DNA of 64,000 nt from the human T2T-CHM13v2.0 reference genome, Homo sapiens. The notes beneath the pieces are model-generated. The model did no database searches. It had not been told where the DNA came from and saw nothing but the letters and a program-made list of their open reading frames with translations. The stretch lies in assembly GCF_009914755.1 (NCBI RefSeq), contig NC_060938.1; one strand, 5' to 3'. The first letter of the stretch is position 1, and every line of letters begins with the position of its first letter. The position numbers were made by a program, and so were the translations under genes. Of this stretch, positions 55,701 through 60,020 are shown in pieces.

Positions 55701-58700
55701 AAGTAATGATGTCACTGATTCATGTATTTACTATATTTATCATTCTAGAATATATTACTTCTACTTCGGTTAACTATAAAACAGCCTTAGGCTGGTCCTT
55801 CAGAAGGTGCTCCTAAAGAAAGCACTGTTACAGCAGAGTACAACTCTATGTGTATTAATGCCCTTGAAGACCTTCCAGTGGGACAAGATGTGGAGGTGAA
55901 AGACCCTCTGCAGGCCTAGGCTCATGTGTCTTTGTGTCGTAGTTTTCAACAATAACAATAATGTTTAAAAAGTAAAAGACAAAAAAATTTAAAAATAGAA
56001 AAAAGCTTATAGAATAAGGACATAAAGAAAACTTGTAGAGTTGTACAATGTGTTTGTGTTTTAAGCTAAATGTTTCAATTTTTTATTTTTATTTTTATTT
56101 TTTCTGAGACAGGTTCTCCATCTGTTGCCCAGGCAGGAGTTTAGTGCTGCAATCTCGGCTCACTGCAACCTCGAACTCCTGGGCCCAAGCAATCCTCCAG
56201 CCTTAGCCTCCCAAGTAGCTGGGAGTACAAACATGTACTACTACACCTGGGTAATTTTTAAATTTTTTGTAGAGACAGGATTTTGCTATGTTGCCCAGGC
56301 TGGTTTTGAACTCCTGGCCTGAAGTGATCCTCCCGCCTTGGCTTCCAAAGTGCTAGGATTAAAGATACGAGCCACTGTGCCTGGCCCAGAATTACTGACC
56401 TGCGCTTTCTATCCCTGCTTTTATTATGGCTCCGACTCCTCTTCTTCCTGTGAAAGAGAGTACATTCTTCTTTTTTTTTTTTTAATTTTGAGAAAGAATC
56501 TCGCTCTGTCGTGCAGTGGTGCAATCTTGGCTCACTGCAACCTCCGCCTTCCAGGTTCAAGCGATCCTCATGCCTTAGCCTCCTGAGTAGCTGGGATTAC
56601 AGGCATGTACCATCATGCCCAGCTAATTTTTTATATTTTTAGTAGAGACAAGGTTTCGCTATGTTGGCCAGGTTCATCTTGAACCCCTGGCCTCAAGTGA
56701 TCCACCTGCCTCAGCCTCCCAAAGTGCTGGGATTACATGCATGAGCCCCGCGTGAGCACCGCGCCAGGTCAGGAGTGTAAATTCTTAAAGAGAAGGTTTC
56801 GTTATTGCTGCCAAAGAAAAGGAATTACAGTAAGGCCAGAATGAAACAGAAAGCATGAAAAAACCAAAGACCCGAAGATGATCCAGCAGTGGTTCACAGC
56901 AATTGCACAATACCAACTTACAGCCCTGAAAGCTGTCAGGCATCTGAAGAGGCCATTTTTCCCCCTAATGCGAAGCAAAACCTGGTGTTTCCAAATCAGG
57001 GGTCCTCTTGCTATTTTTTTTTTTTTTGAGACAGAGTCTCACTCTGTTTCCCAGGCTGGAGTGCGATGGTGCGACCTCGGCTCACTACAACCTCTGCCTC
57101 CCATGTTCAAGCAATTCTCCTGCCTCAGCCTCCTGAGTAGCTGGGATTACAGGAGCCTGCCACCGCGCCCAGCTAATTTTTGTATTTTTAGTAGAGACGG
57201 GGTTTCACCATGTTGGTCAATCTGGTCTCGAACTCCTGACCTCAGGTGATCCACCCACCTCGGCCTCCCAAAGTGCTGGGATTACAGGTGTGAGCCACCA
57301 CGCCCAGCCCCTCTTGGTATTTTATTCAAATGAAGTATATTGATGCTAGGACTAATCCACAAATCTACACTGGAAAATGAAGACTAGATAATTAAATCAA
57401 GTCACCATTATTCTCATGACCTAGGTGGAGCCATTACTAACAGTCAGCAGTCTTAACAGAAACAATCTCCCTATTCTGGTTATTTTTCCAATGGACAAAA
57501 CTGTTTCCCTTCCCCAAGTTGCCAACCCATTTCTTCCTCCCACACTCACTTGCTTGTCTCCCCGATGGTGCTGCTTCCACTGGTCTCATTGCCACTGTTG
57601 CTGGTGCTGCTGGTGGTATTGCTAGGATAATCCTTTTTAACTTCTTTCCTTTGTTGCTCATCCTGAGGCATTCACCAGGAAAATGTCACAAGGTATAAGG
57701 TGGCAGACACACAGATTCCAATGGGCAAAGGGAACAAAGGTGGACAAGGAATAAATCAAACCACTTGATTATCTAGCCAGATTTTCAGCACCCTTATTTC
57801 CTAACAAAGGGAGTAAGAAAGGAATCAAGGAAACTACCTAAAAGGAAGAGATCAGCATGACAGATTTTGATGTCAAACTTCAGTTACCCAACATCTGCTC
57901 CACTAACATTTCCCAGGAGAGTTACAAATTGGTGCTAGGCTGGGGGCAGTGGCTCACGCCTGTAATCCCAGCACTTTTAAAGGCTGAGGCAGGCGGATCA
58001 ATTGAGGCCAGGAGTTTGAGACCAGCCTCGCCGACATGTCGAAACCCCATCTCTACTAAAAATACAAAAATTAGCCAGGCATAGTGGCACACGCCTGTAG
58101 TCCCAGCTACTTGGGAGGCTGAGGCAGGAGAATCATTTGAATCTGGGAGGCAAAGGTTGCAGTAACTGGGATTGTACCACTGCACTCCAGCCTGGGCAGC
58201 CTAGTGAGACTCTGTCTCAAAAAAAAAAAAAAAAAAAAAAAAAAAAAAAAAAAAAAAGAGGCTGGGCGCAGTGGCTCACACCTATAATCCCAGCACTTTG
58301 GGAGGCCAAGGCAGGCGGGTCACCTGAGGTCAGGAGTTCCAGACCAGCCTGACCAACATGGAGAAACCATCTCCACTAAAAAGACAAAATTAGCCAGGGG
58401 TGGTGGCACATGCCTGTAATCCCAGCTACTTGGGAGGCAGGAGAATCGCCTGAACCCGGAGGCAGAGGTTGTGGTGAGCTGAGAACGCGCCACTGCACTC
58501 CAGCCTGGGCAATGAGTGAAACTTCATCTCAAAAAAAAAAAAAAAAAAAAAGAAAGGAAAAAAGAAAGCGGTGGGGGGGAAAGGAAGGGAGAAGGAGGGA
58601 GGGATGGGAGGAGAGGGCAGAGGGAGGGAAAAGCAAGCAAGCAAGCAAGCAAATTGCTGTTAAGTGGGCCAGGTGCAGTGGCTCACTCCTGTAATCCCAG

Positions 58701-59469
58701 CACTTTGAGAGGCCAAGGCAGATCGCTTGAGCCTGGGAGCTCGAGACCAGCCCAGGCAACATAGCAAGACCCTGTCTCTATAAAAAATATATTAAAAAAG
58801 AAACTGGGACGGGCGCAGTGGCTCACGCCTGTAATCCCATTACTTTGGAAGGCCAAGGTGGGTGGATCATAAGGTCAGGAGATCAAGACCATCCTGGCCA
58901 ACATGGTGAAACCCCGTCTCTACTAAAAATACAAAAATTAGCTGGGCATGGTGGTGCTTGCCTATAATCCTAGCTACTTGGGACGCTGAGGCATGAGAAT
59001 GGCTTGAACCCAGGAGGCGGAGGTTGCAGTGAGCCAAGATTGTGCCACTGCACTCCAGCCTGGCAACAGAGCGAGACTCTGTCTCAAAAGAAAAAAAAAA
59101 GAAATTGGTGCTAGGTCTGAGGTACAGTGACTTTCTACTGTGTCACTTCGAGTTTTGAGCAAAGCACAGATTACCAACACCACATTATGTGCCCACTCCG
59201 GTTTCTGAGGTTGTCTCTAAAAGTATGGCTCTTAACCATAGTCTCCAGCAAAGCTTACTAAGACTATGCCTTTTATGATTAGTTATTCTACATAATAAAT
59301 AAGCAGGGAAAGAGGATTCATAAAATGTTGAAAGTTGAAAGTGATGATCGACAACTACTCTTTCTCATTAACCCAATTCCAGGAGTGAGGTGGAAAATAT
59401 TACCTCTTCTTTTTTATAGGGAGCTTCCAGCATGGCCTCAATCACTATGTCAAAGTCATCAGATGCCAT
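49793..59469 (-). CDS. RBM23: RNA-binding protein 23 (CAPER-beta), complement(join(49793-49796,49877-49946,50043-50165,50253-50448,52328-52393,52942-53079,53161-53313,53403-53520,53673-53726,54262-54435,56400-56447,57550-57662,59404-59469)), 440 aa
   Basis: Exons sum to 1323 nt with GT-AG introns; [20 protein letters not shown] start, RS domain, RRM1 (RTVFCMQL...KGIAYVEF), RRM2 (RLYVGSL...KGYGFITF), poly-Ala, ends FTPQTM. Confidence 0.96.
49877..49946 (-). CDS. RBM23: RBM23 penultimate exon
   Basis: ctag|CT CTG AGT...ACC AT|gtgagt. Confidence 0.9.
50043..50165 (-). CDS. RBM23: RBM23 poly-Ala exon
   Basis: AGIQLPST(A)10QAAALQ...ALT G|gtagt. Confidence 0.93.
50253..50448 (-). CDS. RBM23: RBM23 RRM2 exon c
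   Basis: [27 protein letters not shown]...KLAE G|gtaaa. Confidence 0.95.
50825..51148 (-). mobile_element. Alu in RBM23 intron
   Basis: Poly-T-led Alu. Confidence 0.9.
52328..52393 (-). CDS. RBM23: RBM23 RRM2 exon b
   Basis: [22 protein letters not shown]|gtgag. Confidence 0.95.
52942..53079 (-). CDS. RBM23: RBM23 RRM2 exon a
   Basis: AEKNR...[25 protein letters not shown]|gtgag (helix shared with the RBM39 aryl-sulfonamide/DCAF15 degron). Confidence 0.95.
53161..53313 (-). CDS. RBM23: RBM23 RRM1 exon b
   Basis: [23 protein letters not shown]...QASQ|gtgag. Confidence 0.95.
53403..53520 (-). CDS. RBM23: RBM23 RRM1 exon a
   Basis: [21 protein letters not shown]...VGK|gtaac. Confidence 0.95.
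53673..53726 (-). CDS. RBM23: RBM23 54-nt exon
   Basis: tttag|T TAT AGA...GTC AG|gtggg; [17 protein letters not shown]. Confidence 0.9.
54262..54435 (-). CDS. RBM23: RBM23 RS-domain exon
   Basis: tgtag|T CGT AGT CGA...ACT GG|gtatc. Confidence 0.93.
54455..56075 (+). mobile_element. Tigger3 (Golem) DNA transposon interrupted by an L1M 3' fragment and nested Alus
   Basis: TA|CAGTCATG terminal repeat and ggtcccataagattataa; resumes ~55670-56075; L1 3'UTR-like sequence at 54670-55660 with Alus at 54822-55428. Confidence 0.7.
56085..57309 (-). mobile_element. Three antisense Alus flanking the 48-nt RBM23 exon
   Basis: ~56085-56386, ~56470-56767, ~57014-57309. Confidence 0.85.
56400..56447 (-). 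CDS. RBM23: RBM23 48-nt RS exon
   Basis: cacag|G AAG AAG AGG...CGC AG|gtcag; [15 protein letters not shown]. Confidence 0.9.
57550..57662 (-). CDS. RBM23: RBM23 coding exon 2
   Basis: ctcag|GAT GAG...AGC AA|gtgag. Confidence 0.95.
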
Positions 59470-60020
59470 CCTGTCAGATCTGGGGAGAGGATATTAATAT
59501 GTAAGAATCTGTTTTATATTTTTCCTCCCTTTCCAGCACCACACATTTCTTTCCCACTCCAAGAAAGAGACTTCAGGATATACAGATTTCAGTTCTGTTT
59601 CTTGAACTGCAAAGAAACCTTACCAGCTGTCACTTACTCTAGGTTTATTTTTACACCCTATAGATCTGAACTAGTTCGACTTTGTGGCTTGGAACAGTCA
59701 AGGATAGTCCGGGCGCGGTGGCTCACACCTGTAATCCTAGCACTCTGGGAGGGCAAGGCAGGCAGATCACCTGAGGTCAGGAGTTTGAGACCAGCCTGGC
59801 CAACATGGCGAAACCCCCTCTACCAAAAATATAAAAATTAGCTGGGTGTGGTGGCACACACCTGTAATCCCAGCTACTCAGGAGGCTGAGGCAGGAGAAT
59901 CACTTGAACCCAAAAGGTGGAGGTTGCAGTGAGCCAAGATCACGCCACTGTACTCCAGCCTGGGCAGCAATGTGTGACCCTGTCTCAAAAACAAAACAAA
60001 CAAACAAAAAACACAAAAAA
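57938..60020 (+). mobile_element. Sense Alus on both sides of the first RBM23 coding exon
   Basis: Cluster at 57938-59100 and a single Alu at ~59707-60020. Confidence 0.85.
59404..59469 (-). CDS. RBM23: RBM23 first coding exon (exon spans 59404-59479)
   Basis: cccag|ATCTGACAGG ATG GCA...GAA GAG|gtaat. Confidence 0.95.

What the first reader, a model, noticed from the sequence alone, without database searches (positions are those of the whole stretch)
57550..59479. Back-spliced RBM23 exons 2-3 form a 189-nt circle with an endless (rolling-circle) ORF
Seen: the exons are 76 + 113 = 189 nt (63 codons), with oppositely oriented Alus ~230-240 nt outside each end (59707+ and 57309-), the classic circRNA layout. 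The back-splice reads AGC AA|A TCT GAC AGG ATG (S-K-S-D-R-M): in frame, stop-free, and containing the strong-Kozak host AUG. The product would be concatemers of [63 protein letters not shown]. Circles extended to the next three phase-2 donors (237, 411, 465 nt), or using the alternative AG 9 nt downstream, are also stop-free and would give poly-RS concatemers. Circularisation also removes the AUG from the linear mRNA. I recall a circRBM23 being catalogued (unverified); translation is inference.
Basis: partly seen in the sequence, partly recalled or inferred. Interest (0 to 1): 0.8.

Follow-up and report, generated by a model that had tools for sequence, protein, structure and literature searches.

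The report
Known circRBM23 circle, endless frame untested
The two RBM23 exons do join into a 189-base RNA circle with a reading frame that never stops, but this circle is already well catalogued, such endless frames arise by simple arithmetic in about a third of exon circles, and nothing yet shows it is made into protein.

Summary
Exon 2 (59404-59479, 76 nt) and exon 3 (57550-57662, 113 nt) have canonical AG/GT sites and give a 189-nt circle. The frame holding the host AUG has 0 stops; the other two frames have 10 and 2. Inverted Alus lie about 225-230 nt outside each end.

The circle is already known. It is circRBM23 = hsa_circ_0000524 = hsa_circRNA_101319, hg19 chr14:23378691-23380612, 189 nt. 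It is abundant and is listed as an "AUG circRNA". The 411-nt exon 2-5 circle is also catalogued, as hsa_circ_0031241.

The endless frame is not special. 26 of 78 contiguous RBM23 exon circles have a stop-free frame. Stagsted 2019 found infinite ORFs in 8% of AUG circRNAs and no sign of translation.

I found no translation evidence for this circle. However, trypsin gives only a 3-residue junction peptide, so silence in proteomics data is weak evidence.

One new point: the paralogue RBM39 shows the same property, a 114-nt exon 2-3 circle that is stop-free.

Verdict: a known circle, most likely non-coding, with rolling-circle translation possible but unsupported.

The parts
59404..59479 (-). RBM23 exon 2 (76 nt): 10-nt leader plus the first 22 codons. 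Its 5' end is the back-splice acceptor side.
   Evidence: AG at 59481-59480, GT at 59403-59402. Matches the hub annotation.
59467..59469 (-). Host start codon ATG, with A at -3 and G at +4.
57550..57662 (-). RBM23 exon 3 (113 nt). It ends in phase 2, and its 3' end is the back-splice donor side.
   Evidence: AG at 57664-57663, GT at 57549-57548.
57663..59403 (-). Intron 2, spliced out of the 189-nt circle. It holds Alus in the same orientation as the intron-1 Alu, plus an A39 run (58219-58257) and other length-unstable tracts.
   Evidence: The published length of 189 nt implies the intron is removed.
59711..60000 (+). Alu in intron 1, 232 nt upstream (gene sense) of exon 2. It is complementary to the intron-3 Alu. 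The alternative 5'UTR exon 59862-59979 lies inside it.
   Evidence: pairs I3, I7; I15; hub annotation for the exon.
57014..57326 (-). Alu in intron 3, 224 nt downstream (gene sense) of exon 3. It is the partner of the intron-1 Alu and of many others.
   Evidence: I1-I3, I5, I7; I1, I3, I5, I9, I11, I12, I15, I20, I23, I24.
57938..58368 (+). Competing Alus inside intron 2, which also pair with the intron-3 Alu (82-86%).
   Evidence: I1, I5, I10.
58791..59066 (+). A further competing Alu inside intron 2.
   Evidence: I2, I12.
59406..59411 (-). AAGAAG hexamer (circle position 69). The same hexamer was used as an IRES-like element in circPFAS by Fan et al.
   Evidence: for the position; for the hexamer's role in that paper.
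57641..57646 (-). Second AAGAAG hexamer (circle position 93).
57600..57615 (-). Two CACCAGC heptamers 9 nt apart (circle positions 124 and 133). These are seed matches for miR-138-5p; the motif is recalled, not taken from a tool.
   Evidence: miR-138-5p is the first predicted site in the array table, and a review reports miR-138 sponging.
54262..54435 (-). Exon 5. Its donor is the end of the second catalogued circle, hsa_circ_0031241 (exons 2-5, 411 nt, also stop-free).
   Evidence: The hg19 coordinate 23375403 maps by constant offset to 54262.
56400..56447 (-). Exon 4 (48 nt), alternatively used in the long circle. A 67-nt form (56400-56466, AG 19 nt upstream) breaks the frame.
   Evidence: 58 of 137 nanopore reads; upstream AG; 430-nt form stops after 73 aa.

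Best explanation
This is the known exonic circular RNA circRBM23 (hsa_circ_0000524). It is made when the exon 3 donor (57550) is back-spliced to the exon 2 acceptor (59479) and intron 2 is removed, giving a 189-nt circle that carries the host start codon (an 'AUG circRNA').

Back-splicing is probably helped by the long, Alu-rich flanking introns with many inverted Alu pairs. This step is inferred.

The endless reading frame follows from exon arithmetic: a 10-nt leader (1 mod 3), exon 2 ending in phase 0, and exon 3 ending in phase 2. It is not a designed feature.

The RNA most likely behaves as a stable non-coding by-product or regulator. It may compete with linear splicing of the AUG exon or bind miR-138. 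If ribosomes ever start on it they would not terminate, but such translation is at most rare.
For: Sequence facts:
- Splice sites, lengths, frame and Kozak context are as stated.

Identity with the catalogued circle:
- hg19 chr14:23378691-23380612, minus strand, gene RBM23, with a stated length of 189 nt (Table 1 passage of PMC8858837).
- The donor-side coordinates of this circle, of the exon 2-5 circle and of exon 4 all map to window exon ends with one constant offset.

Abundance:
- 667-7053 back-splice reads per sample in six nerve samples.
- Chosen as a stably expressed reference for junction-spanning NanoString probes.
- Listed as an AUG circRNA in supplementary file 4 of Stagsted 2019.

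The endless ORF is ordinary:
- 26 of 78 RBM23 exon circles are stop-free.
- Infinite ORFs occur in 8% of AUG circRNAs, and that study saw no translation by RiboSeq, MS or overexpression (abstract and passages).

No link to translation in the literature:
- 0 papers for RBM23 + rolling + circRNA.
- 0 papers for RBM23 + circRNA-encoded.
- 0 papers for RBM23 + circRNA + Ribo-seq.
- 3 papers for RBM23 + 'rolling circle', all about amplification or a reference-list entry.
Against: Every sequence prerequisite for rolling-circle translation is met:
- The circle is 3n and stop-free, and its AUG has A at -3 and G at +4.
- It carries two AAGAAG hexamers, an IRES-like element in Fan et al..
- Its size lies inside the range of synthetic IRES-less circles (129 and 258 nt) that Abe 2015 saw translated in lysate and HeLa cells.

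Fan et al. report that about half of their MS-supported circRNAs carry rolling-circle ORFs.

Absence from MS lists is weak evidence, because the only fully tryptic junction peptide is 3 residues long.

The paralogue RBM39 keeps the same endless-frame property with a different leader length, 13 versus 10 nt. That could hint at constraint, though chance is about 0.3.

I could not see per-circle RiboSeq counts. File 2 of Stagsted's supplements and one large spreadsheet of Fan 2022 were not readable.
Confidence: 0.78

Rival explanations
1. One reading: circRBM23 is translated by ribosomes that start at the host AUG and circle without terminating. They would produce concatemers of a 63-residue, 6.95-kDa, acidic, Ser/Thr-rich unit at detectable levels.
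For: - The circle is stop-free and 3n, with a strong AUG context.
- It contains two AAGAAG hexamers.
- Synthetic infinite-ORF circles of 129-387 nt with a Kozak AUG and no IRES are translated.
- Fan et al. validated rolling-circle products of circPSAP, circPFAS and circABHD12 with reporters.
- The circle is abundant.
- Trypsin blindness at the junction would explain why proteomics has been silent.
Against: - No paper or readable supplement links this circle to ribosomes or peptides.
- Stagsted 2019, whose data set includes this circle, found no translation of AUG circRNAs and warns that overexpression vectors give false positives.
- The property is expected by chance.
- The circular fold is not unusually open or closed: MFE -35.6 kcal/mol, z = -1.25 against mononucleotide shuffles, and the AUG lies in a predicted stem.
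Confidence: 0.18
2. The main effect is in cis. Back-splicing of exons 2-3 competes with linear splicing, so that transcripts lose the AUG exon and RBM23 protein output falls. The circle itself is a by-product.
For: - The circle contains the only annotated start codon.
- If exons 2-3 were skipped, the next in-frame ATG would be host residue 171, behind three out-of-frame ATGs.
- AUG circRNAs form an abundant, conserved class of unknown function.
Against: No exon 1-exon 4 linear transcript was shown here. The hub table lists no such exon pattern explicitly. No quantitative circle-to-linear ratios were seen.
Confidence: 0.25
3. circRBM23 acts as a miR-138 / miR-338-3p sponge, as disease-association papers claim.
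For: - Two CACCAGC heptamers lie 9 nt apart in the circle (the motif is recalled as the miR-138-5p seed match).
- miR-138-5p is the top predicted site in an array table.
- A review summarises Wang 2018 (not seen by me) as showing miR-138 regulation in hepatocellular carcinoma cells.
Against: - Two sites on a low-copy RNA are few for stoichiometric sponging. This rests on general knowledge and was not tested here.
- The primary papers were not seen.
- The expression findings are inconsistent between tissue and blood.
Confidence: 0.15
4. The back-splice junction is an artefact (template switching, trans-splicing or a genomic exon duplication).
For: None found. Reverse-transcriptase artefacts are a known risk for circRNA detection (introduction passage).
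Against: - Detected by enzyme-free NanoString junction probes, arrays, RNA-seq and the nanopore study's tables.
- Exon 3 has only one copy in the T2T genome, so there is no duplication or retrocopy with reversed exon order (1 match, which is the exon itself).
Confidence: 0.02

Closest known systems
hsa_circ_0000524 / circRBM23 / hsa_circRNA_101319 (circBase and array names; hsa-RBM23_000001 in the table)
   Same: Same gene, strand, donor-side coordinate by constant offset, and 189-nt length. It is described as two RBM23 exons, called exons 4 and 5 in another transcript numbering.
   Different: The genomic span is 1921 nt in hg19 and 1930 nt in this T2T window. I attribute the 9 nt to length-variable tracts in intron 2 (A39 and others). 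I could not align hg19 to check.
AUG circRNAs (Stagsted et al. 2019, PMC6487579)
   Same: The circle contains the host start codon and is abundant. It is listed by name and coordinates as 'AUG circRNA' in their supplementary file 4.
   Different: That class is described as mostly Alu-independent (abstract). This circle has inverted Alus within about 230 nt of both ends. It also belongs to the 8% minority with an infinite ORF.
Rolling-circle ORF (rcORF) circRNAs: circPSAP, circPFAS and circABHD12 in Fan et al. 2022; synthetic FLAG circles in Abe et al. 2015
   Same: An ATG-containing frame without a stop, and a length of 3n. The AAGAAG hexamer is present. The size lies between Abe's 129- and 258-nt circles.
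   Different: Those have reporter, western or MS evidence of concatemers. circRBM23 has none that I could find.
RBM39 exon 2-3 (paralogue, T2T chr20)
   Same: The AUG exon ends in phase 0 and the next exon ends in phase 2. The leader is 1 mod 3. The hypothetical 114-nt circle is stop-free in the host frame. The exon borders are confirmed by a processed retrocopy on chrX.
   Different: The leader is 13 nt rather than 10 and is not alignable by eye. The RBM39 exon 2-4 circle (309 nt) has a TAG at the junction. I did not establish that a 114-nt RBM39 circle exists. The circRBM39 papers listed concern other exons, e.g. (4,5,6) (listing only).

Membership tests
Exonic circRNA made by back-splicing | Canonical AG before the first and GT after the last circularised exon | tested here: met
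   AG at 59481-59480 and GT at 57549-57548.
Exonic circRNA made by back-splicing | Back-splice junction observed in RNA, independent of reverse-transcription artefacts | not testable with these tools
   Literature only: junction reads, arrays, NanoString junction probes, nanopore study tables.
Exonic circRNA made by back-splicing | Internal intron removed (exon-only circle) | not testable with these tools
   The stated length of 189 nt equals 76 + 113. No read-level data were seen for the short circle.
AUG circRNA (Stagsted 2019) | Circle includes the host gene's annotated start codon | tested here: met
   ATG at 59469-59467 lies inside exon 2. The circle is labelled 'AUG circRNA' in their file 4.
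rcORF / infinite-ORF circRNA (definition in Fan et al.) | A frame with an ATG and no stop when the circle is read repeatedly; length a multiple of 3 | tested here: met
   (0 stops, 189 = 3 x 63). Definition taken.
Translated circRNA | Phased ribosome footprints or peptides across the back-splice junction, or a concatemer ladder dependent on the circle | not testable with these tools
   None found in print. The tryptic junction peptide is only 3 residues.
Alu-driven circRNA | Inverted complementary repeats in the two flanking introns | tested here: met
   57014-57326 versus 59711-60000, about 83% complementary. Many competing pairs exist, however.
miRNA sponge | Multiple seed matches and AGO occupancy | tested here: inconclusive
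   Two heptamer matches to a recalled miR-138-5p seed. No AGO data.

The most novel reading that the evidence does not exclude
The endless frame is kept by selection in both paralogues. RBM23 exons 2-3 (189 nt) and RBM39 exons 2-3 (114 nt) both circularise in frame, although their leaders differ in length (10 versus 13 nt). These abundant AUG circles would then be rolling-circle translated into repeats of the conserved N-terminal module, giving a circle-specific protein output that tryptic proteomics cannot see.
Probability: 0.05. Interest if true: 0.7.

Novelty: already known. Interest (0 to 1): 0.22.

Why it matters
Whether endogenous circRNAs are translated is still disputed: compare Stagsted 2019 with Fan 2022.

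circRBM23 is a convenient test case. It is small and abundant, it carries the host's own well-placed AUG, and it has no stop, so one rare initiation event would be amplified into a ladder.

A practical point came out here. Trypsin cuts the junction into a 3-residue peptide. Existing shotgun data therefore cannot settle the matter, and a different protease is needed.

Otherwise the finding restates a catalogued circle. The endless frame is the expected outcome for one in three exon circles.

Tried and rejected
- A 22-residue exon 2 query against the window's own genome found only itself. I located RBM39 through the exon 8 peptide instead.
- I looked for a genomic retrocopy of the circle, with exon 3 followed by exon 2, by searching exon 3 DNA in the T2T genome. 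There was 1 match, the exon itself, so no such copy was found. The tool scores only the best candidates.
- The Fan 2022 supplements held 0 occurrences of RBM23, 23380612 or hsa_circ_0000524 in 4 spreadsheets. One spreadsheet was too large and 4 PDFs were unreadable. I do not count this against translation, because of the tryptic problem.
- In the Stagsted supplements, file 2 was not searched. RBM39 has 7 rows in file 4; I saw 2, both 'Ambiguous circRNA'. I did not determine whether the 114-nt RBM39 circle is listed.
- The circular MFE of the 189-mer has z = -1.25 against 200 mononucleotide shuffles, which is no signal either way.
- I considered that the 9-nt span difference (hg19 1921 versus T2T 1930) means the catalogued circle uses the AG 9 nt downstream. 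I rejected this as less likely, because the published length is 189 and not 180 and only the 59479 acceptor is annotated. I could not prove it without hg19. Either circle is stop-free.
- Conservation of the leader phase in other mammals could not be tested, because no mammalian genomes other than this one are held.

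
Full report
**1. Observation**

On the minus strand, exon 2 is 59404-59479 (76 nt). It is preceded by a pyrimidine tract and AG, and followed by GT. Exon 3 is 57550-57662 (113 nt), also with AG and GT. The host ATG sits at 59469-59467, after a 10-nt leader, with A at -3 and G at +4.

Joined head to tail by script, the two exons give 189 nt, or 63 codons. 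The frame holding the ATG has no stop per turn; the other two frames have 10 and 2.

Exons 2-4 (237 nt), 2-5 (411 nt) and 2-6 (465 nt) are 3n and stop-free. Exons 2-7 (583 nt) is not 3n. Using the AG 9 nt downstream gives a 180-nt circle that is also stop-free.

**2. Alus**

An Alu at 57014-57326 (intron 3) and one at 59711-60000 (intron 1) are inverted and about 83% complementary. They lie 224 and 232 nt from the exon ends.

The gene is Alu-dense, however. The same intron-3 Alu also pairs with:
- Alus inside intron 2 (57938-58368 and 58791-59066, 82-86%);
- at least six further intron-1 Alus;
- an intron-4 Alu, which is its best partner (54945-55250, 306 nt, 85%).

The layout fits Alu-assisted back-splicing, but it does not single out this exon pair. 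None of the 25 longest inverted pairs shown (of 200 found) has an arm in the short intron 5, which follows the second catalogued circle.

**3. Is the endless frame more than chance?**

No. Of the 78 circles that can be made from contiguous RBM23 exons 2-13, 26 (33%) have a stop-free frame. This is the 1-in-3 expected from length alone. Of the 11 multi-exon circles that start at exon 2, five are endless: 2-3, 2-4, 2-5, 2-6 and 2-13.

A random 10-nt leader plus the junction codon stays open in 0.86 of 200,000 simulations. Stagsted et al. report infinite ORFs in 8% of AUG circRNAs in both human and mouse (passage).

**4. What it is**

The circle is catalogued.

- Passages in four papers give hg19 chr14(-):23378691-23380612, gene RBM23, under the names hsa_circ_0000524, hsa_circRNA_101319 or circRBM23.
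- One table gives its length as 189 nt.
- PMC8776217 calls the exons '4 and 5', which is another transcript's numbering.
- With the offset that puts hg19 23378692 at window 57550, hg19 23375404 falls on 54262 (the exon 5 end) and 23377542 on 56400 (the exon 4 end). The donor-side mapping is therefore exact.

The acceptor side differs by 9 nt: the span is 1921 nt in hg19 and 1930 nt here.
- Intron 2 holds an A39 run, a 37-nt A-rich tract and microsatellites, so a 9-nt length difference between assemblies is likely.
- By coincidence, 9 nt is also the distance to the alternative AG.
- The published 189 nt (not 180) and the single annotated acceptor argue for the indel.
- Either way the circle is stop-free.

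**5. Abundance and isoforms**

- Back-splice counts were 667-7053 in six sural-nerve libraries.
- A prostate-cancer study chose the circle as one of five stable reference transcripts for junction-spanning NanoString probes.
- It recurs in blood biomarker studies.
- Stagsted's supplementary file 4 lists it as 'AUG circRNA'. The same file lists chr14:23375403-23380612 (exons 2-5 by offset) as 'Ambiguous circRNA'.
- Rahimi et al. list both circles. For the long one (hsa_circ_0031241, 147 nanopore reads) they report alternative use of an exon at hg19 23377541-23377608, in 58 of 137 reads. That is exon 4 in a 67-nt form.
- With exon 4 skipped (363 nt) or in its 48-nt form (411 nt) the long circle stays endless. 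With the 67-nt form (430 nt) the ORF stops after 73 residues.

**6. Translation**

I found nothing that ties this circle to ribosomes or peptides.

| Search terms | Papers |
|---|---|
| RBM23 + rolling + circRNA | 0 |
| RBM23 + circRNA-encoded | 0 |
| RBM23 + circRNA + Ribo-seq (anywhere in words) | 0 |
| RBM23 + 'rolling circle' (anywhere in words) | 3 |

In the 3 hits of the last search, the phrase refers to rolling-circle amplification or to a reference-list entry.

A five-term search needing 3 of 5 terms gave 42 papers. None of the 25 listed contained RBM23, and 17 were not listed.

The four readable spreadsheets of Fan et al. 2022 contain no RBM23. One spreadsheet and the PDFs could not be read.

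Stagsted et al., whose set includes this circle, saw no evidence of AUG-circRNA translation from about 22 billion human RiboSeq reads, from MS or from overexpression. They also warn that vectors can create exon-repeat mRNAs.

On the other side:
- Abe et al. showed that synthetic infinite-ORF circles of 129, 258 and 387 nt, with a Kozak AUG and no IRES, give very large products in reticulocyte lysate. The 258-nt circle (western blot and imaging) and the 129-nt circle (imaging) give signal in HeLa cells.
- Fan et al. report reporter ladders for three endogenous rcORF circles, and use AAGAAG as an IRES-like element. circRBM23 has that hexamer twice.

**7. A practical point**

In a concatemer, trypsin would cut the junction into a 3-residue peptide. 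All other peptides are shared with the host protein. Junction-spanning tryptic spectra are therefore not to be expected, and the silence of shotgun proteomics says little.

The repeat unit would be 63 residues, 6.95 kDa, pI 4.4, and rich in Ser, Glu, Asp, Thr and Lys.

**8.

The window's own genome could be searched. The RBM23 exon 8 peptide found RBM39 on contig C20 (88% identity) and a third copy on C23.

In RBM39:
- The AUG exon is C20:37461793-37461856 (64 nt, 13-nt leader, ends in phase 0).
- The next exon is 37459937-37459986 (50 nt, ends in phase 2).
- The RS exon is 37452914-37453108 (195 nt).

The C23 copy is a processed retrocopy. It matches the script-joined exons 2+3+4 over 1-309 at 95.5%, and its upstream part matches an RBM39 exon 1 region. 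This confirms all three borders.

A hypothetical RBM39 exon 2-3 circle would be 114 nt and stop-free in the host frame. The exon 2-4 circle (309 nt) has a TAG at the junction.

So the leader phase (1 mod 3) is shared, although the leaders differ in length. With one comparison, and a chance of roughly 0.3, this is a hint and not evidence of selection. I did not establish that a 114-nt RBM39 circle exists.

**9. Mechanism and verdict**

Shown:
- the sequence anatomy;
- identity with a catalogued, abundant circle;
- that the endless frame is ordinary.

Inferred:
- Alu-assisted back-splicing;
- loss of the AUG exon from the linear product. If exons 2-3 were skipped, the next in-frame ATG would be residue 171, behind three out-of-frame ATGs;
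- possible miR-138 binding through two heptamer sites (motif recalled).

I judge the non-coding reading most likely (about 0.78). Detectable rolling-circle translation is possible (about 0.18). A selected, functional concatemer is unlikely (about 0.05).

Novelty: already known as a circle. The endless frame is a correct remark, and I did not find it in print for this circle, but it places the circle in a known class.

Noticed in passing
window 59862-59979 within 59711-60000: The alternative 5'UTR exon of other RBM23 transcripts (hub table) lies entirely inside the intron-1 Alu that pairs with the intron-3 Alu. It is therefore an exonised Alu, in the very element proposed to drive circularisation.
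   Followed up: partly
window 56448-56468: An AG 19 nt upstream of exon 4 gives the 67-nt exon form reported in 58 of 137 nanopore reads of the long circRBM23. This form shifts the frame, so the 430-nt circle stops after 73 residues.
   Followed up: partly
window 58219-58257: A perfect A39 homopolymer lies between two tandem Alus in intron 2, with a further 37-nt A-rich tract at 58531-58567. These are the likely source of the 9-nt span difference between hg19 and this T2T window.
   Followed up: no
L004 (G000:C23:43434635-43437784), about 758-1259: A processed retrocopy of RBM39 on the X chromosome, 95.5% identical over exons 2-4 and including exon 1 sequence. It carries a stop codon in place of the last codon of exon 2.
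   Followed up: partly
G000:C20 about 37461930-37461959 (in L006): About 100 nt upstream of RBM39 exon 2, the intron holds a near-copy of the first ~29 nt of that exon (93% by local BLAST). It may be a small local duplication or a decoy of the exon start.
   Followed up: no
window 54945-55250 and 57018-57323: The strongest inverted Alu pair in the region (306 nt, 85%) brackets the alternatively used exon 4. This could favour its skipping or its own circularisation.
   Followed up: no
window 57600-57615: Two identical heptamers 9 nt apart match the recalled miR-138-5p seed, inside the Ser/Thr-coding AGC/ACC-rich stretch of exon 3.
   Followed up: partly
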